In this document: piece by piece, positions 2,106 through 37,920 of the stretch
Layout of the letters: the number at the start of each line of letters is the position of its first letter
Position numbering within the stretch: position 1 is the stretch's first letter
Source: a virus
DNA: 37,920 nucleotides
Reading direction: 5' to 3' (one strand)
Virus genome (UHGV): UHGV-0126763
Program-made: the position numbers and the translations under genes
The notes under the pieces: model-generated
Seen by the model: only the letters and a program-made list of their open reading frames with translations
The model's database searches: none
What the model was told of the DNA's origin: nothing

Positions 2106-3000
2106 TGGCAACCTCCAGTTTCGCTTTGCATTCTATGTAAATGGCTTGTACGTTCTGCTGCAATTTCATTCCAGATGTCAGGCGATATGCTTCTGCAAAA
2201 TATCGCTTCAAATCATCCATCTTTTCTGCCTGAGCCATTTCATCACAAAGAAGTTGTGCTTTATCCGTTATTTCCTGCTGGCGTTTCCGTTCATCTTCGC
2301 GGATATCTTCCTCTGATTTGTACGGCATAACTGGTTCAGTCCATACACCTTCTTCTTCGTTTAGTACGTGAATAGCACTATCAAGACGTGATGCCTTAGG
2401 CCAATACTTGCTTGCACGCTTTACGACCGTCTTTCGCGCCATCTCATTCCAGTGATTTACCCATGGCCCTTTATCGCTGAATGCCGCCTTGCTTGTTTTC
2501 CTTACAGCCTCAATTTCAGCCAGACTCATCTCTTCCGTTAGATAATCACCTGCTGGCGTCTTAACTGTGCAGTAAACGCCAACGATATCACCACGATCAC
2601 CGAAGGCGTTGTATTTATGGGTTGGTGCTTTATCAAGCCCGTTTGACTCATAGGTATCGTTAGCATGAACAAGTTTTGCCTGACCCCATGAGATAACACC
2701 AGACTCCATTGCAATATGGAGCAATCCCATATAGCTGATATCAAGGCAAACCATGCCGTCGCGCGGAACCAGATAAGCCAGTTTGCTGGCCGGGTTTAAG
2801 GTGATGCCGATCGCCGCAACATTGATGATGGCGTTCTGTGCGCTGGTTGGATTTGCCAGTGCTGTTTTAGCCAGGTAATCATTTTTCTGGAAATACTGAA
2901 TTGCAAACTGGCTTTCCTTAGCCCATGTCACCGTCTGTTCAGTCAATGCTCCGCAGAATAACTGCTCCTGCTGTTTAACGAATTCAACGATATTGCTCAT
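2089..3000 (-). CDS. recT: RecT-family single-strand annealing recombinase
   Basis: 303 aa; GPWVNHWNEMARKTVVKRASKYWP segment matches the conserved RecT core as recalled from E. coli Rac RecT; ATG with GGAG RBS. Confidence 0.85.
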   Translation of the reverse strand: MSNIVEFVKQQEQLFCGALTEQTVTWAKESQFAIQYFQKNDYLAKTALANPTSAQNAIINVAAIGITLNPASKLAYLVPRDGMVCLDISYMGLLHIAMESGVISWGQAKLVHANDTYESNGLDKAPTHKYNAFGDRGDIVGVYCTVKTPAGDYLTEEMSLAEIEAVRKTSKAAFSDKGPWVNHWNEMARKTVVKRASKYWPKASRLDSAIHVLNEEEGVWTEPVMPYKSEEDIREDERKRQQEITDKAQLLCDEMAQAEKMDDLKRYFAEAYRLTSGMKLQQNVQAIYIECKAKLEVASEQTI

Positions 3001-3308
3001 GCAGCTTCTCCATAAATATGTCTGCGTTTGAATATTGCGAAGGCATATTCAGCCTTAACTCTTTCGGTTATTGCATCCCAGAACCATTCAGCGGCTTTTT
3101 CCTGATAGTCACAGTCATCATCTTCCAGCCAGTCGATAGCGTCCTTAGTGTGTTCATCTGGCTTATATGAGCGAAGCATTTCGCTTATTGGGTCGCAACG
3201 TTTGCAGAGGCGATCAACTTCACTGTTGATTCGTTCGTAATCATCATCGGTAAAACTTGCGATGATTTGCGATATTTCACGCTTATCATTCAGAGTCAGA
3301 ATCATCAT
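2997..3308 (-). CDS. Hypothetical phage early protein
   Basis: 103-aa acidic ORF, ATGATG start, stop overlaps recT start. Confidence 0.55.
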   Translation of the reverse strand: MMILTLNDKREISQIIASFTDDDYERINSEVDRLCKRCDPISEMLRSYKPDEHTKDAIDWLEDDDCDYQEKAAEWFWDAITERVKAEYAFAIFKRRHIYGEAA

Positions 3309-3393
3309 CTTTCTCCTGTTCTTTGTGCTGATTGAGCATTTCTTTCATCTGACGAATGAATTCTTCGTCTGACCAGTTATCTGTAAAACTCAT
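3286..3393 (-). CDS. Small hypothetical protein (35 aa), not in ORF track
   Basis: Hand translation MSFTDNWSDEEFIRQMKEMLNQHKEQEKDDDSDSE; stop overlaps ATGATG start of downstream gene; weak RBS. Confidence 0.3.
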   Translation of the reverse strand: MSFTDNWSDEEFIRQMKEMLNQHKEQEKDDDSDSE

Positions 3394-3624
3394 GGACGGC
3401 CTTGTTGTTTCAAAATATCCCAAAGCTTTTCGAGCAAACTTTTCATTCTTGGTTGTTTAAAGTCTGCTCCGGTTAAAATGTTTTTTCGTGAATGCTGCAC
3501 CGATAAAATCGGGTTGAAAGGGCGAACCGATGCCGCCCCTGCAATAGCGAACTGTTGCATAGGATGCTCCTTCTGTTTGATTGCATAACGAAAACGCCTC
3601 GAATGAAGCGTTATTGGTATGCAT

Positions 3625-3648
3625 ATAAAAAGGCCCTCACATTGGAGG
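3625..3648 (-). terminator. Intrinsic terminator-like hairpin in early-left operon (tL-like)
   Basis: Minus strand reads GCCCTC-caatgt-GAGGGCC followed by TTTTTATATGC. Confidence 0.45.
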
Positions 3649-3778
3649 GCAAAGAAGATTTCCAATAATCAGAACAAGTCGGCTCCTGTTTAGTTACGAG
3701 CGACATTGCTCCGTGTATTCACTCGTTGGAATGAATACACAGTGCAGTGTTTATTCTGTTGCTTATTCCAAAGCAAAT

Positions 3779-4021
3779 TTAACCATCAACAAACTCTTCT
3801 GGTAATTTATCAACCAGTTGATGACTTATTATCAGCCATTTGCCATCCTTCGTTTCGTATGCATATTTCTGGTCTTTTATCATCATGTGTTCGGCTACTG
3901 CCCTAACTGCCTGATCGGTGACATCTTCTCTCTTTCCTACCCACATTCCTTTTTCAGTGTTTAATGTTCCTTGAAAAATACGACCGCTTAATGGGCTTGC
4001 GCCCATAGTTTTTACTCTCAT
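3779..4021 (-). CDS. Hypothetical phage early protein
   Basis: 80-aa ORF immediately downstream of N; ATG with GAGAG RBS. Confidence 0.6.
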   Translation of the reverse strand: MRVKTMGASPLSGRIFQGTLNTEKGMWVGKREDVTDQAVRAVAEHMMIKDQKYAYETKDGKWLIISHQLVDKLPEEFVDG

Positions 4022-5076: not shown

Positions 5077-5763
5077 TCAAACTTTTGGCAGATCGTCCTG
5101 GTCTACGTACCTGGTGTGTTTCACAATAGCTGAAACAAAATGCATTTTATCAACTTCTTCAACAGGAAGAGTGATTGGGCGGTGATCACTGTTTATGCTA
5201 CTAAACTGATAATCACCGTCTCTTGTTTTGTTCATGATCTTTATCATGTTGTGACCGTCTTTGGTCCTTACAAAGACTTCATCACCTGGATGTACTGGCG
5301 TATTTGGTTCAATAACAACATATTCTCCTGACTGAATCCTTGGCCACATGCTGTCACCCTTAACCTTCAGACCGTAAGCATCTTTATCGCCGCTGTAGAT
5401 GCTTAACCAACCGGATCTGAATTCAATCATATCCACTGAGCCATCAACTCCCAAAACGGCTTCACCAATTACCGGAACAAAACCCGCACGAACGTTACCC
5501 GCAAACTCAAGATGGTCCGTAGCTCCAGCTTTACCATCTGCAAGCATGTCCATCCATCCGCGTGGGAGATTAAAAGATTTTTCAATTAGTTCCATCATAT
5601 CGTCAGCAATGCGTTTTTTTCCGCTTTTTCCTTCCGGATACAGCATTCTGGAAACGTATGATGGTTCCCTTTCTATTCGACGAGCCAACTCTGAGGCCTT
5701 TCCATTACAGAATCGGTCTCTTATCTCTATCAGCCTTAGTCGTCTTTGTTCGTATTTATCCAT
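5077..5763 (-). CDS. cI: CI-like prophage repressor (HTH N-terminal domain, S24 LexA-like peptidase C-terminal domain)
   Basis: 228 aa; C-terminal GDSMWP serine motif and later Lys typical of S24 autoproteases; divergent from cro-like gene across the operator cluster; no SD before ATG, consistent with a leaderless PRM-type transcript. Confidence 0.85.
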   Translation of the reverse strand: MDKYEQRRLRLIEIRDRFCNGKASELARRIEREPSYVSRMLYPEGKSGKKRIADDMMELIEKSFNLPRGWMDMLADGKAGATDHLEFAGNVRAGFVPVIGEAVLGVDGSVDMIEFRSGWLSIYSGDKDAYGLKVKGDSMWPRIQSGEYVVIEPNTPVHPGDEVFVRTKDGHNMIKIMNKTRDGDYQFSSINSDHRPITLPVEEVDKMHFVSAIVKHTRYVDQDDLPKV

Positions 5764-11161: not shown

Positions 11162-11346
11162 ACGCCACAATTCAAACGATACCAGAGCTTCTTATCCAGA
11201 CACGAGGCAATCAGACCGAAGTGGCGAGGATGCTTTCCTGCGCAAGAGGAACAGTGCTCAAGTACAACCGAGACAGCAAAGGCGAGCGTCACGTAATAGT
11301 TAACGGCGTCCTGATGGTCAAACAGGGCAAGAGGGGTAGACCATGA
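11158..11346 (+). CDS. ninH: NinH-like small DNA-binding protein
   Basis: 62-aa ORF immediately upstream of Q, coupled to rusA stop. Confidence 0.5.
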   Translation: MNATIQTIPELLIQTRGNQTEVARMLSCARGTVLKYNRDSKGERHVIVNGVLMVKQGKRGRP

Positions 11347-11966
11347 GACTCGAAAGTGTAGCTAAATTTCATTCGCCAAAAAGCCCGATGATGAGCGACT
11401 CACCACGGGCTACGGCTTCTGACTCTCTTTCCGGTACTGATGTGATGGCTGCTATGGGGATGGCGCAATCACAAGCCGGATTCGGAATGGCTGCATTCTG
11501 CGGTAAGCATGAACTCAGCCAGAACGACAAACAAAAGGCTATCAACTATCTGATGCAATTTGCACACAAGGTATCGGGGAAATACCGTGGTGTGGCAAAG
11601 CTCGAAGGAAATACTAAGGCAAAGGTACTGCAAGTGCTCGCAACATTCGCTTATGCGGATTATTGCCGTAGTGCCGCGACGCCGGGCGCAAGATGCAGAG
11701 ATTGTCACGGTACAGGCCGTGCGGTTGATATAGCAAAAACAGAGCAGTGGGGGAGAGTTGTTGAGAAAGAATGCGGAAGATGCAAAGGTGTCGGCTATTC
11801 AAGAATGCCAGCAAGCGCCGCATATCGCGCTGTGACGATGCTAATCCCAAACCTTACCCAACCCACCTGGTCACGCACTGTTAAGCCGCTGTATGACGCT
11901 CTGGTGGTGCAATGCCACAAAGAAGAGTCAATCGCAGACAACATTTTGAATGCGGTCACACGTTAG
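11343..11966 (+). CDS. Q: Late gene antiterminator Q (lambda-type)
   Basis: 207 aa; MRLESVAKFHSPKSPMMSDSPRATASD and CRDCHGTGRAVD zinc motif match lambda Q as recalled; followed by PR'-like promoter. Confidence 0.9.
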   Translation: MRLESVAKFHSPKSPMMSDSPRATASDSLSGTDVMAAMGMAQSQAGFGMAAFCGKHELSQNDKQKAINYLMQFAHKVSGKYRGVAKLEGNTKAKVLQVLATFAYADYCRSAATPGARCRDCHGTGRAVDIAKTEQWGRVVEKECGRCKGVGYSRMPASAAYRAVTMLIPNLTQPTWSRTVKPLYDALVVQCHKEESIADNILNAVTR

Positions 11967-28556: not shown

Positions 28557-28862
28557 ATGCAGTTTAACGAAATACCGCTTTCTCCTGACAATCAGCAGTT
28601 CCGCGTTTTGCTGGGCAATACCACGTATACACTCAGGATCATCTGGCGTGATGCGGCTGGCTGGATTATGGACGTGATGGATAGCGGCGGTGCTGCGCTT
28701 CTTTCTGGCGTACCTCTCCTGACCGGCGTGAACCTATTACGACAATATCCACAGCTTGGCATTGATGGCGCGCTGGTGGTGGCGACCGATAAGGGCGCAC
28801 CAGACGAGCCCACCAAAACCAACCTCGGCACATACAGCCACCTCATTTTCGTACAGGAGTAG
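28557..28862 (+). CDS. Hypothetical tail protein
   Basis: 101-aa ORF in tail operon. Confidence 0.5.
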   Translation: MQFNEIPLSPDNQQFRVLLGNTTYTLRIIWRDAAGWIMDVMDSGGAALLSGVPLLTGVNLLRQYPQLGIDGALVVATDKGAPDEPTKTNLGTYSHLIFVQE

Positions 28863-28864
28863 AA

Positions 28865-29929
28865 ATGTCTCTTAACTGGATGCGCCATTTTGAGCTGCAA
28901 CTGTTGGACCAGAACGGGCAGGGCGTTTCCCTGTCTGACTTTAAGGTCACGTTCCAGATCGAGTGGGCAGACACACGCTGGCCACGCGTGGCGAACGTGA
29001 AAATTTACAACCTTTCGACCGATACCACGAACAAGATACTTGGGCAGGAGTTTGCCAAAATTCGCATCATTGCCGGGTATGACGGTATAGTGCCGGATGT
29101 TGATGCGAGCCAGGTTGGTGTGTCCCGGGAGATTTCACCAGACCAGATAGGGCAGGTGAACGGTCAGAACTACGGCCTGATTTTTGACGGTGATATTCGC
29201 TTCACCGTCACCGGGAAGGACAACATTACGGATTCCTGGGTGTTGATTCAGGCCATTGGTGATCACGAAGCGTTCCTCTATGCGACCACCATCACCACGC
29301 TTGCCGCTGGCTATACCGTTGCGGATCTGCACCGGGCGACGATGCAGGATTTCAACGCGTTCGGCGTGACACAGGGCATTACCGGCGATTTTCCTGATAC
29401 CGTGTTTCCTCGTGGCCGCGCGATTTACTCATCCAGCCGCAACGTGATGGATAATATTGCTGCGCAGTGCAAAGCGACATGGCAACTGGTGGATGGTCAG
29501 GTCCAGATGGTGCCGGAGGATAAATATATTCACGAAGCCATTGTGTTGAATGCCAATACTGGCCTGATCGGTATGCCGCAACAGACAATGGGCGGCGGCG
29601 TAAACGTGCGGTGCCTGATAAACCCAAACATCCGCATTAATGGTCTTATCCAGCTCGATCAGGCTTCGGTGTACCGCGCCGCGCTCGGCAATAGCGAAAT
29701 CGCACAGTCGCCCGGTCGTATCACTGAAACGGAAGAGAACGGCAACCGCGCACTGACCGGCACAACGTCACAGGCTGCCAGCATTGCGACAGATGGCGTT
29801 TATATCGTCAAAGCTATCGACTATACTGGCGACACCAGAGGTCAGGCGTGGTACATGGATTTGATGTGTTTTGCGCGTGGCAGTCGTGATTTAGTTAATG
29901 CTGGTGCTATGCAAAAAACAAACTACTGA
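28865..29929 (+). CDS. Putative baseplate hub / late-control D-like tail protein
   Basis: 354 aa, GGAG RBS, position between tape measure and spike gene. Confidence 0.5.
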   Translation: MSLNWMRHFELQLLDQNGQGVSLSDFKVTFQIEWADTRWPRVANVKIYNLSTDTTNKILGQEFAKIRIIAGYDGIVPDVDASQVGVSREISPDQIGQVNGQNYGLIFDGDIRFTVTGKDNITDSWVLIQAIGDHEAFLYATTITTLAAGYTVADLHRATMQDFNAFGVTQGITGDFPDTVFPRGRAIYSSSRNVMDNIAAQCKATWQLVDGQVQMVPEDKYIHEAIVLNANTGLIGMPQQTMGGGVNVRCLINPNIRINGLIQLDQASVYRAALGNSEIAQSPGRITETEENGNRALTGTTSQAASIATDGVYIVKAIDYTGDTRGQAWYMDLMCFARGSRDLVNAGAMQKTNY

Positions 29930-29939
29930 GGTACGGGAC

Positions 29940-30275
29940 GTGAAACTCGTAATTTTTATCATTGCAGCATTATTTTCTTTCCAAGCTATTGCTGATTCTC
30001 AGTGTGGTGATTTCAAAATCCATTGGGCTGATGATGGTTTCGCTCGCGTAAACGGAGCTAAACCTGAATCGCAAAAAGTGACATTTCTTAAAAATGACGG
30101 TGATTATAACAACGTCAAAATTGAATGGCGCTTAGCGACCAATCAACCAGGGCGATGGGTAGGAATGGAGTTTATTGGCCGTAATGGTAAAGCAATCCTG
30201 AATGCTCAGTGGCTGCAAGCCAGCATGGATTCGCCGCGTCAGTATGCAACATACGACTGCCGAAAAGTAAAATAG
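29940..30275 (+). CDS. Secreted small protein (Sec signal peptide), moron in tail module
   Basis: GTG at 29940 with GAGG 8 nt upstream gives MKLVIFIIAALFSFQAIA followed by DSQCGDF (AXA cleavage site); two Cys in mature part; AT-rich; ORF-track ATG at 29898 lacks the signal peptide context. Confidence 0.55.
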   Translation: MKLVIFIIAALFSFQAIADSQCGDFKIHWADDGFARVNGAKPESQKVTFLKNDGDYNNVKIEWRLATNQPGRWVGMEFIGRNGKAILNAQWLQASMDSPRQYATYDCRKVK

Positions 30276-30293
30276 CCCGCCAGATAGGCGGGC
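30275..30293. terminator. Hairpin between convergent moron genes
   Basis: GCCCGCC-agata-GGCGGGC; on the minus strand it is followed by T-rich CTATTTTACTTTT. Confidence 0.45.
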
Positions 30294-30298
30294 ATGCG

Positions 30299-30589
30299 TC
30301 AAAAATATTGAGCTTTAATTATAATAAACACAATAATTACGAACAGGATGTTTCTAATTATTTTTTGCTTATGAGTAAGTTGTTTTTTTTCTGTCGATTT
30401 CCCGGGAGAGTAAAGGTTAGTGGTATGCGACAGCCCCGTGCCGGGAAGGCCATTTGTCATCTTTACGCCTTTTTTTCCGATGTTAATGGTGGAACCTTTA
30501 CCACCAATTGAAGTGCTTACTCCGCTTTTACTAATGTTGATCGCGAGTCCGGGCGCAATCCGGATTCTTTTACGAAATCTAAATCCCAT
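30299..30589 (-). CDS. DUF4236-like protein with C-terminal membrane anchor, opposite-strand moron
   Basis: 96 aa; AGGAG RBS 6 nt upstream of ATG; N-terminal MGFRFRKRIRIAPG...SKSGVSTSIGGKG...GLPGTGLS resembles DUF4236 from memory; C-terminal hydrophobic ILFVIIVFIIIKAQYF. Confidence 0.65.
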   Translation of the reverse strand: MGFRFRKRIRIAPGLAINISKSGVSTSIGGKGSTINIGKKGVKMTNGLPGTGLSHTTNLYSPGKSTEKKQLTHKQKIIRNILFVIIVFIIIKAQYF

Positions 30590-30776
30590 TTGTTACTCCT
30601 GTAGTCAATAATGCGATGGTGCAGGTCCACTCTATGGCGGCTTCATGGCTGAAATTGATTTTCAATGCTTACTTGTTGCAAACATATCCTAATACACCTT
30701 GTGAATGTGTGCCATTGCAGCGGAAAAGCCTTACTTCACACTGATGTGGCTTAGTTACTAAGAGATAATTGATACC

Positions 30777-30800
30777 AAACCAGCTTCGGCTGGTTTTTTT
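30777..30800 (+). terminator. Intrinsic terminator preceding baseplate genes
   Basis: AAACCAGC-ttcg-GCTGGTTT followed by TTTTT, 12 nt before the baseplate spike ATG. Confidence 0.55.
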
Positions 30801-30811
30801 ATGGGGGTTTT

Positions 30812-31552
30812 ATGCCAATTCCAACTCAATCACAGATCGGCGGTGAGCAGCAGACCGCGCAGGCCATTGTCGATTCGGTGTCTACCCAGATGCGCGTAGC
30901 GATGCCCGGCATCATTCAGTCGTTCGATCCTGACACTGTTACCTGCACAGTAGAGGTAGCGCTTCGCGGTATTGTTGGCGATGGCTCCACCGAATTAAAA
31001 CCGCTGGTGGATGTGCCGGTTATCTTCCCGCGCGGCGGCGGTTGCACGCTGACCTTTCCGGTAAAAGAAGGCGACGAGTGCCTGCTGATCTTTGCCGACC
31101 GTTGCATCGATTTCTGGTGGCAGAGCGGCGGCGTTCAGGAGACCGTCGACCCGCGCCAGCATGACTTATCTGATGCGTTCGCCATCGTTGGCCCGCAGTC
31201 GCAAGCGCAGAAAATCAGCGGTATCAGTACCAGCGCCGCGCAGCTGCGAACCGATGATGGCTCGGCGTTCGTAGAGGTCGCAGCAGGGCATAACATCACC
31301 GTTAAAACGCCGGGCAAGCTTACGGCTACGGCTGAGGGTGGAACGACAATCACATCCCCGACTATCACGCTGAACGGCAACGTAACGATTAATGGCAATC
31401 TGTCTCAGGGAATGGGAGAAAGTGGTGGTACTGCGACGATGCTTGGGCCGGTTACGGTAACGAATGATGTGACAGCTTCAGGTATAAGTGTCGCCACGCA
31501 TAAACATGGCGGAGTTCAGGCAGGCGGGGGAACTACTGGAGGGCCGCAATAA
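30812..31552 (+). CDS. Baseplate spike / assembly protein V-like
   Basis: 246 aa; N-terminal OB-fold-like region then Gly/Thr-rich beta-helix-like C-terminus typical of gpV/Mu gp45-type spikes. Confidence 0.65.
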   Translation: MPIPTQSQIGGEQQTAQAIVDSVSTQMRVAMPGIIQSFDPDTVTCTVEVALRGIVGDGSTELKPLVDVPVIFPRGGGCTLTFPVKEGDECLLIFADRCIDFWWQSGGVQETVDPRQHDLSDAFAIVGPQSQAQKISGISTSAAQLRTDDGSAFVEVAAGHNITVKTPGKLTATAEGGTTITSPTITLNGNVTINGNLSQGMGESGGTATMLGPVTVTNDVTASGISVATHKHGGVQAGGGTTGGPQ

Positions 31553-31905
31553 TGCGATACCGTCGCGAAGATGCTGACGGCGATTACACTTTCGGGCAGG
31601 GTGACGACACCTTCCTTATCGACAGTCCGGAATGTGTCGCCCAGGCCGTGAAAACCCGTTTCGAACTGTGGCGCGGTCAGTGGTTTCTCGATCTGACGGA
31701 AGGCACGCCGTATGTTCAGTCAGTGCTTGGGAAACAGCGATCAGACGTCTACATCCTGGCTATACGCGAACGCATACAGGACACGCCGGGCGTTCTGTCG
31801 ATTCTTTCCTTCGATACCAATTATGACGGCACCAGCCGCCGCGTCACTTTCACTTCCTCCATTGACACAATCTACGGCCAGACGACTGTAACAAGCGAGG
31901 CATAA
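31552..31905 (+). CDS. Baseplate protein (Mu gp46 / W-like)
   Basis: 117 aa, coupled to spike gene, upstream of J-like gene. Confidence 0.5.
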   Translation: MRYRREDADGDYTFGQGDDTFLIDSPECVAQAVKTRFELWRGQWFLDLTEGTPYVQSVLGKQRSDVYILAIRERIQDTPGVLSILSFDTNYDGTSRRVTFTSSIDTIYGQTTVTSEA

Positions 31906-35156: not shown

Positions 35157-36200
35157 TTACCCTGTAAATATGCTAAGGAATGTTTTTTGAAATGATTTGT
35201 TTTTATTTTTAGCGTTAATTAATGCTACTATACTAACTTGCAGTTTTACCATTATTGTAGCAAGTGTGTAAGTAAGTACATAACTTATTAAATAATGACT
35301 ACCTATTTTTTGACACATTATGATAAATGGGATGTGCCATAAATAAATCCAAATGGAGTTTTGGGATATGAATGAAACAACCTGCCATAATCTTAAAACC
35401 TTAAGTAAAAGAACAGCTTTGTTTGAGAGCAGATAGACTACGAATATCATAAAGGTTGCATAGGACATGTAATATATCCCAGGTGGGTACTTGTCTGACT
35501 GAGTTGGATTAAAGGCACCCAAGGTAATAATGTAATATGCAGTCATGGCAGAAAATAATAATCCACAGATAATGGTTGGGGGTAATAATTCTTTATGATC
35601 AGTGCTTGCAATTTTATAACCAATGATGAAAGCAAGTGTATAAGATATAGAGTTTGATATGTATGTCCCCAAAAGTATATAAATGCTCAACTTGTCAATT
35701 CCATTATACAATGGAATTAACTGGCTATTAATTAATAAAAATGACGCGGATATTGTTAATATCGCTTTTAAATTAAGTGTGTATAGTTTTGGAGGAATGA
35801 AAGTGGCTATCACTGATATTATGAAAAAGAGTCTAATAACCCACACATAACCAAGCCCACTGGATAATGCGAATGATGTTATTATAATTGACTTATTGTA
35901 AGTAAAGTCTTTTATATTAAAAATAAACGAAATGATTTCATTTATTAAGAAAAATGCCGCGAAGAAAATCCAAGTTGGTAAAACTAAACGGCGAAATCGA
36001 GAATTAATATATTTTATTCTGTTGCTATGGCGATGTTCGGTTACACAAAAGGACATCCCCATAACCATAAACATTAAAGGAACATCAAAGTTTCGCAGTT
36101 GAGCTAGCCATAAAGGAGGCTGGACATGGGCTAGAATGATTAGAGAAAGCCCGAGAAATCTTAAAAAATCTATTTTATCAATACGCATGACTTCGTCCAT
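35157..36200 (-). CDS. Acyltransferase family 3 integral membrane protein (putative O-antigen acetyltransferase)
   Basis: 347 aa, about 10 predicted TM segments, N-terminal IDFLRFLGLSLIILAHV motif typical of acyltransferase-3 (OafA/Oac-like); strongly AT-rich; sits between tail fiber genes and integrase. Confidence 0.8.
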   Translation of the reverse strand: MDEVMRIDKIDFLRFLGLSLIILAHVQPPLWLAQLRNFDVPLMFMVMGMSFCVTEHRHSNRIKYINSRFRRLVLPTWIFFAAFFLINEIISFIFNIKDFTYNKSIIITSFALSSGLGYVWVIRLFFIISVIATFIPPKLYTLNLKAILTISASFLLINSQLIPLYNGIDKLSIYILLGTYISNSISYTLAFIIGYKIASTDHKELLPPTIICGLLFSAMTAYYIITLGAFNPTQSDKYPPGIYYMSYATFMIFVVYLLSNKAVLLLKVLRLWQVVSFISQNSIWIYLWHIPFIIMCQKIGSHYLISYVLTYTLATIMVKLQVSIVALINAKNKNKSFQKTFLSIFTG

Positions 36201-36676: not shown

Positions 36677-37834
36677 TCATGTGACGTTACCGTCTATCCA
36701 GTCCGCCCACCATTGCATCATTTCTCTGCGCTTATCGAGATACTGAGCATGATTGTAAATTCCACGCACAGATCCGCCGTTGGCATGTGCCAGTTGCACT
36801 TCAATGGCGTCGGCAGGCCATTCGTGCTCGTTCATAATCGTGCTGAATTCATGCCTGAATCCGTGACCGCTTTCCAGACCTTCATAGCCGATTTGTTTGA
36901 TCACAAGCAATACCGCGTTCTCGCAGATTGGCTTCTTCTTATCGTTGCGCCCGGCAAAAACAAACTCTGAGACTGGTTTAGTGATGGAGCTTAGCGTAGT
37001 GAGAAGCTCAACCACCTGGTCTGACATAGGAACAACATGAATTTTGCGTCCCTTCATCACATTGGCGTCGATGGTGATAATCCTGTTTTCAAAATCGACG
37101 TTCTTCCATAGCATGGAACGAAGCTCTTTTGTTCTGAGGGCTGTGTAGCGTAAAACTTTGGTCGCAATGAGCGATACGATACTTCCTGAAAATGTTGCAA
37201 GTGCTTTGTTGAATTCCGGGATCTGGTCTGCAGGAAGAAACGGGAAGTTCTTCTTGCGGTATCCCTTCATGGCGTCAGCAAGGTCAGGTGACGGGTTATA
37301 TTTAGCCCTTCCGGTGACAATAGCGTAACGGAAAACCTCGCCGCATCTTCTGCGTGCTTTGTTGGCTCGCTCCATTGCGCCGCGATCTTCAAATCTGCGG
37401 ATTACTTCCAGCAGTTTCATCGGCTCAATATCCTGAATTTCAAGGCCGCCGATGATAGGTAAAATGTCGTCATCAAACATCTTTGCAAGTTCATTTGCAT
37501 AGCCTACTGACCAGACTTGCTTCTTGTGCTCGTACCATTCCTTGTAAATGGCGCTAAAGGAATTGTTGTTAGACGAAGCCTTTTTCGCCTTTACCGGATC
37601 GATGCCAACCGAGATGTCTTTCCTCGCAGTCCATGCTTTATCCCTTGCCTCCTGCAAAGTCATAAGCGGATATTTTCCTACGGTCAGTATTTTTTCCTTA
37701 CCGTCAATCTTGTAGCGAAGCTGCCATACCTTTTTCCCGGATACAGGGACATAAAGGTACAGGCCATTACCATCGAGAAGGCGATATGGTTTTTCTTTCG
37801 GCTTTGCTGCTTCAATCTGCTTAACGGTGAGCAT
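36677..37834 (-). CDS. int: Tyrosine integrase (P4-like family)
   Basis: N-terminus MLTVKQIEAAKPKEKPYRLLDGNGLYLYV typical of this family; C-terminal catalytic region with RHEFST and HANGGSVRGIY; ORF-track start 37870 is an upstream GTG. Confidence 0.85.
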   Translation of the reverse strand: MLTVKQIEAAKPKEKPYRLLDGNGLYLYVPVSGKKVWQLRYKIDGKEKILTVGKYPLMTLQEARDKAWTARKDISVGIDPVKAKKASSNNNSFSAIYKEWYEHKKQVWSVGYANELAKMFDDDILPIIGGLEIQDIEPMKLLEVIRRFEDRGAMERANKARRRCGEVFRYAIVTGRAKYNPSPDLADAMKGYRKKNFPFLPADQIPEFNKALATFSGSIVSLIATKVLRYTALRTKELRSMLWKNVDFENRIITIDANVMKGRKIHVVPMSDQVVELLTTLSSITKPVSEFVFAGRNDKKKPICENAVLLVIKQIGYEGLESGHGFRHEFSTIMNEHEWPADAIEVQLAHANGGSVRGIYNHAQYLDKRREMMQWWADWIDGNVT

Positions 37835-37920
37835 GGGTAAAAATCCGGTGGGTAAAATTATTTTATCCACTTTTTACCCGTCATGGAGTGCGGCTGTCAA
37901 CGATCTGACGCGAACCATGA

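What the first reader, a model, noticed from the sequence alone, without database searches (positions are those of the whole stretch)
29930..30811. AT-rich two-gene moron island inside the tail module: secreted protein plus convergent DUF4236-like tail-anchored membrane protein
Between the baseplate hub-like gene and the baseplate spike gene lies a visibly AT-rich insert with its own signals. It holds a plus-strand gene for a small secreted protein (classic signal peptide, two cysteines) and a minus-strand gene (30299..30589) with a strong AGGAG RBS, an N-terminal motif resembling DUF4236 and a C-terminal hydrophobic anchor. The two genes converge on a hairpin, and a strong intrinsic terminator at 30777-30800 sits just before the baseplate genes. 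An opposite-strand gene inside a late structural operon is the signature of a lysogen-expressed moron. A DUF4236-like membrane protein paired with a periplasmic protein has no function I can assign, so this is my top candidate for an undescribed exclusion, defense or conversion function.
Basis: partly seen in the sequence, partly recalled or inferred. Interest (0 to 1): 0.75.

Follow-up and report, generated by a model that had tools for sequence, protein, structure and literature searches.

The report
Accessory-gene slot in prophage baseplate operon
Between two baseplate genes of an E. coli prophage lies a swap-in slot for extra genes, here holding a lineage-conserved secreted protein and a small DUF4236 membrane protein; this is an ordinary kind of phage feature, but the function of both protein families is untested.

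Summary
An AT-rich stretch (GC about 0.41, flanks 0.53-0.62) lies between the baseplate hub and spike genes. It holds a plus-strand gene for a signal-peptide protein (29940-30275) and a minus-strand DUF4236 gene (30299-30589; Pfam E 1.8e-20) with an AGGAG ribosome-binding site, a C-terminal membrane helix and a shared GC-rich hairpin.

The "two-gene island" reading is only half right. The secreted protein follows the hub gene in 68 of 73 related phage contigs, from E. coli to Pantoea, so it is a lineage-conserved gene. Only the segment from its stop codon to a universally conserved hairpin and T-run before the spike gene is exchangeable. That slot runs from 62 bp (empty) to 1.7 kb with at least 20 different cargos, including Phd/Doc and an antirepressor-like gene. 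DUF4236 is one cargo (15 of 73).

DUF4236 membrane-anchored genes also recur in accessory slots of unrelated lambda-like and other siphovirus tail modules. Both genes are under purifying selection.

Neither matches a known defence family, no promoter was found, and prophage expression is untested. The most likely role of the DUF4236 protein is an inner-membrane superinfection-exclusion or defence factor, but this is inference. This is a new member of a known kind.

The parts
28865..29929 (+). Baseplate hub gene (left flank of the slot). Its conserved 3' end is the left homology arm.
   Evidence: PHROG 196 baseplate hub, E 4e-82, and Pfam E217_GP41. A duplicated hub 3' fragment precedes each of the second to fourth stacked gene A copies in L075.
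29940..30275 (+). Gene A: 111-aa exported protein with a cleavable signal peptide and a 93-aa mature domain predicted as an 8-stranded beta-barrel with two invariant Cys. Conserved across the lineage.
30275..30293 (.). GC-rich hairpin between the convergent genes. It looks like an intrinsic terminator for the minus-strand gene and belongs to the DUF4236 cassette.
   Evidence: 7 G-C pairs with a T-rich tail on the minus strand only. It starts the slot only in DUF4236-bearing variants.
30299..30589 (-). Gene B: 96-aa DUF4236 protein. Residues 1-60 form a cationic six-strand beta-meander, followed by a linker and a C-terminal membrane helix. It is the exchangeable cargo.
   Evidence: Pfam PF14020, E 1.8e-20. 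AlphaFold2 pLDDT 82. Net charge +10 with no acidic residue; positive-inside rule gives N-terminus in the cytoplasm. Up to 7 nt substitutions are all synonymous; dN/dS 0.04-0.13.
30596..30600 (-). AGGAG ribosome-binding site of gene B, 6 nt from the ATG.
   Evidence: Read directly from the sequence. The motif TTGACTACAGGAG is also kept in the Klebsiella version.
30601..30776 (-). Non-coding region upstream of gene B, specific to the cassette. The promoter is presumed to lie here but was not identified.
   Evidence: 30678-30776 is conserved in both cassette subtypes. No sigma-70 consensus on the minus strand. The 42-aa plus-strand ORF at 30616-30744 loses its start in the L069/L048 subtype.
30777..30800 (+). 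Terminator-like hairpin plus T-run directly before the spike RBS and ATG. This is the right boundary of the slot in all relatives.
   Evidence: Present in 47 of 48 distinct variants, with four different but fully complementary stem types. Homology between cargo variants resumes at the T-run.
30812..31552 (+). Baseplate spike gene (right flank).
   Evidence: Pfam spike N-terminal domain, E 9e-42, plus the GpV Apex motif.

Best explanation
Window 29930-30811 is the accessory-gene slot of the tail operon of a lambdoid-regulated temperate myovirus with an E217/Pam3-type baseplate. The phage also carries a Q antiterminator, a CI-like repressor and an integrase in the window.

The slot has two positions.

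Position 1 is gene A (29940-30275). It is a lineage-conserved gene for an exported small beta-barrel protein. It sits directly after the hub gene on the late-operon strand. Its alleles are far older than the surrounding backbone.

Position 2 is a recombinationally exchangeable cassette. It is bounded on the left by gene A's stop codon and on the right by the T-run of a conserved terminator hairpin just before the spike gene. In this window the cassette is a DUF4236 gene on the opposite strand, with its own ribosome-binding site and its own terminator.

The DUF4236 product is a C-tail-anchored inner-membrane protein. Its strongly cationic beta-sheet domain faces the cytoplasm.

Inferred, not shown:
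- Late transcription reads through both hairpins under Q antitermination.
- Gene B is transcribed independently of the late operon, presumably in the prophage state.
- Gene B acts at the inner membrane as a superinfection-exclusion or anti-phage factor, most plausibly by interfering with DNA entry, by analogy with HK97 gp15.
- Genes A and B are independent functions that share a hotspot, not a two-component system.
For: Shown, anatomy:
- GC dip, ORFs, ribosome-binding site and hairpins.
- DUF4236 hit, E 1.8e-20.

Shown, gene A is conserved and syntenic:
- It follows the hub gene in 68 of 73 hub-anchored IMG/VR contigs.
- It is also there in Pantoea, Serratia, Klebsiella and Hafnia prophages, in Klebsiella phages RCIP0034/GZ7 and in further E. 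coli prophages. Isolated phages SEN34, Mulock and YP3 also encode homologues (31-34% identity; position not checked).

Shown, position 2 is a hotspot:
- 68 distinct slot sequences, 62-1714 bp long, grouping into about 30 ORF clusters.
- Cargos include Phd/Doc, a P22-antirepressor-N protein and other signal-peptide or membrane proteins.
- Homology breaks exactly at gene A's stop codon and at the T-run.

Shown, the right-hand hairpin is universal and carries compensatory stem changes.

Shown, gene B is mobile and selected:
- Its protein is 100% identical across backbones where gene A is 63-78% identical.
- Substitutions are almost all synonymous.

Shown, DUF4236 recurs in accessory slots of unrelated tails:
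- Leclercia lambda-like tail, between the tape measure gene and gpM.
- Pseudomonas syringae, between gpK and gpI/J.
- A metagenomic siphovirus and C. difficile phage phiCD38-2, between the tail chaperone and tape measure genes.
- 64 of the 80 closest IMG/VR DUF4236 loci lie within 5 kb of tail genes.

Shown, topology:
- K+R count is 2.2 before the membrane helix and 0.8 after it, and 46 of 48 family members have a C-terminal membrane helix.
- Variants with a bacterial SH3 domain after the helix, or a cytoplasmic FtsK-gamma domain, fit an N-terminus-inside orientation.

The Q antiterminator is present at 11343-11966.
Against: - No promoter-like site was found on the minus strand upstream of gene B, so independent or prophage expression is unproven.
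- No PADLOC or NCBIfam match for either protein.
- The DUF4236 domain faces the cytoplasm, so it cannot contact an incoming tail in the periplasm directly.
- DUF4236 also occurs without a membrane helix (phiCD38-2 gp15), in large phages of Klebsiella (137-149 kb) and Brevundimonas (>300 kb), and next to repressor, antirepressor or integrase genes. A single tail-linked mechanism is therefore not required.
- The sample of 80 DUF4236 loci is biased towards close relatives of the query.
- In three independent siphovirus contexts a small exported or membrane protein lies next to DUF4236, which leaves some room for a pair.
Confidence: 0.5

Rival explanations
1. Genes A and B form a functional two-component envelope system. 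A periplasmic protein cooperates with an inner-membrane DUF4236 protein to exclude phage or remodel the envelope.
For: - They are adjacent and convergent here.
- They are also adjacent in diverged Klebsiella (A 40%, B 52% identity), Hafnia and other E. coli prophages.
- In independent siphovirus contexts DUF4236 is also next to a small exported or membrane protein. These are a 111-aa lipoprotein in L107, a 43-aa secreted peptide in L017 and a 78-aa signal or membrane protein in L019.
- In Hafnia L106 a different 158-aa secreted protein sits at position 1 beside DUF4236.
Against: - Gene A is present in 68 of 73 relatives, but DUF4236 in only 15.
- One identical gene B protein is combined with at least five gene A alleles of 63-99% identity.
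- Gene A is combined with at least 20 other cargos.
- The exported neighbours elsewhere do not look alike by eye (not formally compared).
- The two genes are on opposite strands, so they are not co-transcribed.
Confidence: 0.12
2. Gene B is a membrane-active toxin or abortive-infection effector rather than an entry blocker. On a trigger the cationic domain and membrane helix oligomerise and permeabilise the inner membrane, killing the infected cell.
For: - It is a small single-pass membrane protein in a slot that elsewhere carries the toxin-antitoxin pair Phd/Doc and a weak EACC1-like effector-associated protein (E 0.0011, below cut-off).
- The predicted beta-meander resembles open sheets that could oligomerise.
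Against: - No partner antitoxin or sensor gene is in the cassette.
- No PADLOC hit.
- The gene is kept intact and strongly constrained in many lysogens, which does not argue for or against toxicity.
- Nothing was tested directly.
Confidence: 0.15
3. Gene B serves the phage's own lytic cycle, for example tail or tape-measure handling at the membrane, control of lysis timing, or DNA ejection. It is not a prophage-expressed accessory gene.
For: - It recurs next to tape measure, chaperone or tail-tip genes in several tail types, sometimes on the late-gene strand (P. syringae, phiCD38-2, L107).
- It occurs in large Klebsiella (137-149 kb) and Brevundimonas (>300 kb) phages.
- No own promoter was detected.
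Against: - It is absent from 58 of 73 closely related phages with the same tail genes, so it is dispensable.
- It is antisense to the late operon in the E. coli, Klebsiella, Hafnia and Leclercia contexts.
- It has its own terminator.
- It is also found in early or immunity regions.
Confidence: 0.1
4. Gene A is the functionally interesting element. It would be a periplasmic specificity or immunity-like protein that neutralises an incoming tail tip (or another periplasm-acting agent), with alleles maintained and exchanged like immunity genes. Gene B would be an unrelated passenger.
For: - Within backbones whose hub protein is at least 92% identical, gene A has dS 1.29 against 0.25 for the hub gene. 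The alleles are therefore ancient and shuffled.
- One phage type stacks four gene A paralogues, each after the first preceded by a duplicated hub 3' fragment, like orphan immunity arrays.
- In 5 of 73 relatives position 1 is instead a roughly 240-aa lipoprotein.
- One variant fuses a lipoprotein N-domain to the gene A barrel.
- Position 1 is therefore an exported protein in every relative examined.
Against: - dN/dS is low (0.12-0.15), so there is no sign of positive selection at the whole-gene level.
- The gene A allele is not correlated with the resident spike allele.
- The fold is a generic 8-stranded barrel, with no informative structural or sequence relative.
- Its tight junction with the hub gene suggests late, not prophage, expression.
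Confidence: 0.2

Closest known systems
HK97 gp15 moron (YebO-like inner-membrane superinfection-exclusion protein)
   Same: Both are small single-pass inner-membrane proteins encoded by an accessory cassette inside the tail operon of a lambdoid prophage. HK97 gene 15 lies between the tail chaperone and tape measure genes (PMC3594210). That is the position DUF4236 genes occupy in phiCD38-2 and L107. Low GC and an own terminator fit the moron definition.
   Different: There is no sequence relationship: the only Pfam hit at E<=1 is DUF4236. Gene B is anchored at its C-terminus and has a 60-residue cationic beta domain in the cytoplasm. Its position here is hub/spike, not chaperone/tape measure. 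Exclusion activity is untested.
Hotspots of antiviral systems in P2-like phages and P4 satellites (Rousset et al. 2022, cited in PMC10884400; content from my own knowledge)
   Same: A fixed position between conserved phage genes where unrelated accessory cassettes replace each other by recombination between conserved flanks. Some of the cargo is toxin-antitoxin or defence-like.
   Different: The phage lineage and location differ (inside the baseplate gene block of an E217/Pam3-type tail). None of the ten cargos scanned matched a PADLOC model. The slot is small (up to 1.7 kb) and mostly holds one or two small genes.
Periplasmic or lipoprotein exclusion proteins of phages: T4 Sp (spackle), T5 Llp, phi80/N15 Cor
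   Same: Gene A is a small phage-encoded exported protein. Alternatives at the same position are lipoproteins. Cor is likewise encoded beside tail genes and blocks entry at the envelope (PMC3594210).
   Different: Gene A has a signal-peptidase-I site, not a lipobox. It is a predicted beta-barrel, whereas T4 Sp is helical (my knowledge). There is no sequence or fold match to any of them, and no functional data.
Pfam DUF4236 (PF14020)
   Same: Gene B is a bona fide member: full-length domain match, 73.6 bits, with the conserved PG...SKSG...PGTG motifs.
   Different: The family has no assigned function. The only paper in the searchable library that mentions it lists it as a hypothetical protein in a Salmonella prophage remnant that also carries tail genes (PMC8049487).

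Membership tests
Pfam DUF4236 (PF14020) | Match to the family HMM above the gathering score over the whole domain | tested here: met
   E 1.8e-20, 73.6 bits against a cut-off of 27, profile positions 1-54 of 55. NCBI annotates the identical protein as DUF4236 domain-containing.
Moron (Juhala/Hendrix sense), gene B | Present in some genomes and absent from closely related ones at the same position | tested here: met
   15 of 73 hub-anchored relatives carry it. The others have different cargo or an empty 62-bp slot.
Moron (Juhala/Hendrix sense), gene B | Nucleotide composition different from the neighbouring genes | tested here: met
   Slot GC 0.41 against 0.53-0.62 in the flanking genes.
Moron (Juhala/Hendrix sense), gene B | Own terminator | tested here: met
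   Hairpin 30293-30275 with 7 G-C pairs and a T-rich tail on the minus strand.
Moron (Juhala/Hendrix sense), gene B | Own promoter, with expression from the repressed prophage | tested here: inconclusive
   No sigma-70-like site on the minus strand in 28800-31600. Consensus scans miss many real promoters, and expression cannot be tested with these tools.
Moron (Juhala/Hendrix sense), gene A | Present in some genomes and absent from closely related ones | tested here: not met
   Present directly after the hub gene in 68 of 73 relatives and across several Enterobacterales genera. It may be an ancient, fixed acquisition given its low GC, but it is not variable now.
Known anti-phage defence systems (PADLOC-DB v2) | Match to any defence-protein HMM | tested here: not met
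   No hit for gene A or gene B at E<=1. No hit for ten alternative cargos.
HK97 gp15 / YebO family | Sequence similarity to YebO-like proteins | tested here: not met
   The Pfam scan at E<=1 returned only DUF4236 for gene B. The resemblance is positional and architectural only.
Phage lipoprotein exclusion factors (Cor, Llp) | Lipobox (L-x-x-C) directing lipid modification | tested here: not met
   Gene A and its homologues end the signal peptide with AxA followed by D and have no lipobox. The replacements at this position in L003, L124 and L178 do have lipoboxes.
Avidin / calycin 8-stranded barrels (gene A) | Significant sequence or fold similarity and conserved ligand-binding residues | tested here: inconclusive

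The most novel reading that the evidence does not exclude
DUF4236 proteins may be a widespread, undescribed class of phage-encoded exclusion or defence factors. A cationic beta-sheet domain, held at the cytoplasmic face of the inner membrane, would intercept tape-measure- or tail-tip-mediated DNA entry. That would explain why the genes keep landing beside tape measure and tail-tip genes in at least three unrelated tail architectures. In parallel, the exported protein at position 1 (gene A) would be an allele-specific periplasmic protector. Its ancient, shuffled alleles and occasional four-copy arrays with duplicated hub 3' fragments would mirror orphan immunity-gene arrays.
Probability: 0.2. 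Interest if true: 0.7.

Novelty: new member of a known kind. Interest (0 to 1): 0.42.

Why it matters
Accessory cassettes in prophage late operons are a proven source of exclusion and defence functions, such as HK97 gp15, Cor and Tab. This locus defines a compact hotspot with clean boundaries, from the gene A stop codon to a conserved terminator T-run. It lies in a common Enterobacterales prophage lineage and holds at least 20 small, mostly unannotated cargos, so it could be mined and tested directly. It also gives DUF4236 its first contextual lead. DUF4236 is found in phages of Proteobacteria, Firmicutes and cyanobacteria and has no published function. The lead is a tail-anchored, strongly cationic, cytoplasm-facing membrane protein that recurs in tail-module slots. 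If it blocks DNA entry, it would be a new and widespread exclusion family. If it does not, the locus remains an ordinary moron slot.

Tried and rejected
- PADLOC and NCBIfam scans of both proteins found nothing. PADLOC on ten alternative cargos also found nothing.
- Rfam on 29800-30900 gave only sub-threshold hits driven by the terminator hairpin, such as isrK at 22.5 bits against a gathering score of 50. I rejected these.
- Foldseek against BFVD found nothing at E<=0.001. The afdb50 library was unavailable.
- Avidin idea for gene A: profile hit of 13.5 bits, E 0.4. The E of 0.0011 comes only from a duplicated single-chain avidin, and nanobodies score the same. I did not adopt it.
- The exhaustive profile search for gene A found a narrow family (69 hits). 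The long multi-stretch hits are WD40, Flg_new, MucBP or SH3 repeat proteins, which are spurious.
- The 42-aa plus-strand ORF at 30616-30744 is conserved only because the cassettes are near-identical. It loses its start in the L069/L048 subtype. I rejected it as a gene.
- The promoter-like site inside the hub 3' end (29799-29827, 9 of 12 matches) is at chance level and is not kept in distant lineages. It is not evidence for a gene A promoter.
- Literature searches for DUF4236 and PF14020 gave one incidental mention and otherwise Plasmodium gene identifiers.
- The CDHS-1 transcriptome paper says nothing specific about its DUF4236 gene.
- Tai and Tab tail-assembly-blocker papers were read as comparators. 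Their locations and proteins are unrelated.
Full report
**1. What is in the sequence**

The window is a temperate lambdoid-type phage genome. It has an integrase (36677-37870, minus strand), an S24-type repressor (5077-5763, minus strand), RecT, a Q antiterminator (11343-11966) and a contractile tail of the E217/Pam3 type. The tail genes include a DUF3383 sheath gene, a tape measure gene with an SLT domain, a Dit-like protein, a Pam3 gp18-like plug, an E217 gp41-like hub, a gpV-like spike with an Apex motif, a sheath initiator, Baseplate_J and DUF2612.

Between the hub gene (28865-29929) and the spike gene (30812-31552), GC falls from 0.53-0.62 to 0.37-0.49.

- A plus-strand ORF that begins at GTG 29940, with GAGG 8 nt upstream, and ends at 30275.
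- A minus-strand ORF at 30299-30589 with AGGAG 6 nt before its ATG.
- A 7-bp all-G-C hairpin (30275-30293) between the two stop codons. It has a T-rich tail only on the minus strand.
- A hairpin with a T-run (30777-30800) immediately before the spike RBS and ATG.

The only claimed signal I could not find is a promoter. The consensus scan gives no minus-strand site in 28800-31600, and its three plus-strand hits equal the shuffle expectation.

**2. The two proteins**

*Gene B (96 aa)* is a true DUF4236 protein (PF14020, E 1.8e-20).

- An alignment of 48 homologues shows a conserved roughly 58-residue N-terminal domain, a variable low-complexity linker and a C-terminal hydrophobic helix with a tail of about 3 residues in 46 of 48.
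- The domain carries +10 net charge and no acidic residue (family range +7 to +11).
- Basic residues cluster before the helix (2.2 before, 0.8 after), so the domain should face the cytoplasm.
- Family variants fit this orientation. Vibrio and Photobacterium proteins add a bacterial SH3 domain after the helix. One protein replaces the helix with an FtsK-gamma domain.

*Gene A (111 aa)* has a variable signal peptide ending in AxA, then a conserved 93-residue domain with two invariant cysteines.

- It has no Pfam domain and matches PHROG 3443, which has no known function.
- The AlphaFold2 model (pLDDT 84, above 90 in the mature part) is an 8-stranded up-and-down barrel.
- Sequence similarity to avidin is at noise level.
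- An exhaustive profile search of 1.84 billion representatives finds only 69 hits, 37 at E<=1e-10. The long multi-stretch hits that were scanned are repeat-protein artefacts.
- The family is narrow, and the homologues that carry an organism name are all Enterobacterales.

Both genes are real and constrained. dN/dS is 0.12-0.15 for A and 0.04-0.13 for B, against about 0.1 for the hub gene. Gene B variants with up to 7 nucleotide changes are all synonymous.

**3. It is a slot, not a two-gene island**

In complete E. coli genomes the region matches 42 prophages. The annotation after the hub gene varies among DUF4236, a second hypothetical protein, Phd/Doc and small ORFs.

I fetched 80 IMG/VR loci through gene A and 80 through the hub protein, then mapped hub, A, B and spike in each.

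- Gene A follows the hub gene in 68 of 73 hub-anchored contigs that have enough downstream sequence.
- In the other five, the same position holds a roughly 240-aa lipoprotein.
- In E. coli SY3626 it holds a 296-aa ORF that fuses a lipoprotein N-domain to the gene A barrel.
- Gene A is also in place in Pantoea (47% identity), Serratia (62%), Klebsiella phages RCIP0034/GZ7 (40%), Hafnia and further E. coli prophages. Homologues also occur in phages SEN34, Mulock and YP3, although their position there was not checked. Its start often overlaps the hub stop codon.

By contrast, the interval from gene A's stop codon to the spike ATG ranges from 62 bp (empty, L092) to 1714 bp.

- It has 68 distinct sequences and about 30 ORF clusters.
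- Cargos include DUF4236, two unrelated signal-peptide proteins, Phd/Doc, a P22-antirepressor-N protein, a weak EACC1-like protein, a Mu-F-like fragment, membrane proteins and several two-gene sets. None matches PADLOC.
- Pairwise alignment shows that homology between cargo variants ends at the gene A stop codon and resumes at the T-run.

**4. The terminator before the spike gene is a backbone feature**

All 48 distinct sequences upstream of the spike ATG, bar one, fold into a hairpin of at least 5 bp followed by at least 5 T. This includes the empty slot. Four different stem cores occur, each perfectly complementary: ACCCGC/GCGGGT, ACCAGC/GCTGGT, AGCCGC/GCGGCT and GGTCGCA/TGCGGCC.

Its likely role is to stop plus-strand transcripts of gene A and cargo from running into the baseplate genes in the prophage state. 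Q-modified polymerase would read through it during lytic growth. This follows from the presence of Q and the established behaviour of lambdoid late operons. It is inference, not shown here.

**5. Gene B as mobile cargo**

The gene B protein is 100% identical in loci where gene A is 63-78% identical and the hub protein is 92-97% identical. The cassette brings its own left hairpin and its own right-hand stem type. Diverged copies (52-58% identity) occupy the same slot, on the same opposite strand, in Klebsiella, Hafnia and other E. coli prophages. DUF4236 is therefore an old and recurrent tenant of this slot.

Outside this tail type, DUF4236 membrane-anchored genes lie in several other places.

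- Between the tape measure gene and gpM of a Leclercia lambda-like tail, on the opposite strand.
- Between gpK and gpI/J in Pseudomonas syringae.
- Between the tail chaperone and tape measure genes in a metagenomic siphovirus and in C. difficile phage phiCD38-2.
- Of the 80 closest IMG/VR DUF4236 loci, 41 are in E217-like tails, 14 in lambda-like tails and 9 near other siphovirus tube genes.
- The remaining 16 loci, scanned together with four of the siphovirus-type loci, have a mix of tail genes and immunity or early-region genes beside them. Neighbouring families include AntA, integrase, S24 repressor, RecT and KilA-N.
- One protein is next to IS21, and the SH3 variant is chromosomal.

The sample is biased towards relatives of the query, so these numbers are indicative only.

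**6. Mechanism**

Shown: gene B is a dispensable, horizontally exchanged, strongly constrained gene. It encodes a tail-anchored protein with a cationic cytoplasmic domain, and it has its own ribosome-binding site and terminator, antisense to the late operon.

Inferred: it is expressed independently, presumably from the prophage, and protects the lysogen. The closest analogue is HK97 gp15. [quoted passage not shown] I give about 0.35-0.4 to exclusion or defence at the inner membrane, with an entry block more likely than an abortive, membrane-damaging role. I give about 0.85 to the structural statement that this is an accessory cassette in a defined hotspot, with gene A conserved and independent. 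The combined confidence of 0.5 reflects both.

Points against are listed in section 8.

**7. Gene A**

Its alleles are far older than the backbone. dS is 1.29 against 0.25 for the hub gene among loci whose hub protein is at least 92% identical, and dN/dS is low. This indicates long-lived alleles shuffled by recombination.

One phage type (L075/L077) carries four tandem paralogues. Each after the first is preceded by a duplicated roughly 68-codon hub 3' fragment. This layout resembles orphan immunity arrays. It also shows that the hub 3' end acts as the left recombination arm.

Position 1 holds an exported protein in every relative examined: gene A, the lipoprotein fusion or the 240-aa lipoprotein. 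This points to an envelope function. An exclusion or protective role is plausible but untested. The tight junction with the hub gene suggests that gene A is made with the late proteins.

**8. Verdict**

The locus is a new example of a known kind, a moron or accessory hotspot in a tail operon, carrying two protein families of unknown function.

The main weaknesses in the functional reading are these.

- There is no promoter.
- There is no defence-database hit.
- The DUF4236 domain faces the cytoplasm.
- DUF4236 also occurs without a membrane helix (phiCD38-2 gp15) and in large phages of Klebsiella and Brevundimonas.
- Small exported proteins sit next to DUF4236 in three independent siphovirus contexts.

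The points worth following up are the recurrent placement of DUF4236 beside tape measure and tail-tip genes, and the allele diversity and arrays of gene A.

Noticed in passing
L075:1720-3940 (also L077); IMGVR_UViG_2806310681_000008: There are four tandem paralogues of gene A (1720-2094, 2365-2685 truncated, 2980-3333, 3587-3940) between the hub and spike genes. Each after the first is preceded by a duplicated hub 3' fragment of about 68 codons. The layout resembles orphan immunity-gene arrays and points to cassette gain by recombination in the hub 3' end.
   Followed up: partly
L003:1734-2624 (E. coli SY3626, NZ_CP059283; also H18, H19): A 296-aa ORF has a lipoprotein signal (LLVSGC), a roughly 190-aa N-domain and the gene A barrel domain. 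RefSeq annotates only the last part, as a pseudogene. The representative search finds matching clusters of 292 and 265 aa (P0210, P0226).
   Followed up: partly
L124:3573-4295, L178:3568-4296, L193:3573-4295, L177:3568-4296: In 5 of 73 related contigs gene A is replaced at the same position by a roughly 240-aa lipoprotein with several conserved cysteines. The first position after the hub gene holds an exported protein in every relative examined.
   Followed up: partly
window 30777-30811 and the equivalent site in 48 distinct relatives: The hairpin, T-run and ATGGRGTTTTT before the spike ATG are conserved in every cargo variant and in the empty slot. Four stem types differ by compensatory changes. 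A terminator sits inside the late operon right before an essential baseplate gene.
   Followed up: yes
L093:3088-4249 (slot ORFs of 261 + 130 aa), L177:4459-5647 (273 + 127 aa), L057 slot (258 + 123 aa): Two-gene cargos occur in which the smaller protein carries an R-x4-H-like motif by eye (RNEADYH), reminiscent of HEPN. Neither protein of the L093 pair has a Pfam or PADLOC hit; the L177 and L057 pairs were not scanned. They could be uncharacterised toxin or defence pairs.
   Followed up: no
window 35157-36200 (-): A 347-aa Acyl_transf_3 family protein (E 8e-22) lies between the tail-fibre assembly gene and the integrase. It is a likely O-antigen or surface-polysaccharide acyltransferase conversion gene. 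A homologous position in L113 also carries an acyltransferase, and L008 carries a glucosyltransferase.
   Followed up: no
window 28865-31552 compared with loci L023-L102: The spike gene is itself mosaic. It is 48-100% identical on backbones whose hub protein is 92-99% identical, and it has the highest dN/dS of the four genes (about 0.23). The spike allele is not linked to the gene A allele.
   Followed up: partly
L107:6409-6744; L017:6338-6469; L019:6568-6804: In three unrelated siphovirus tail modules the DUF4236 gene is directly followed, on the same strand, by a small exported or membrane protein. These are a 111-aa lipoprotein, a 43-aa secreted peptide and a 78-aa signal or membrane protein. 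They do not look alike by eye; no formal comparison was run.
   Followed up: partly
L110:3037-6504 (Photobacterium damselae chromosome): The 167-aa DUF4236-membrane helix-SH3_3 variant lies in a non-phage chromosomal context, downstream of an 813-aa AAA_22-like ATPase gene.
   Followed up: no
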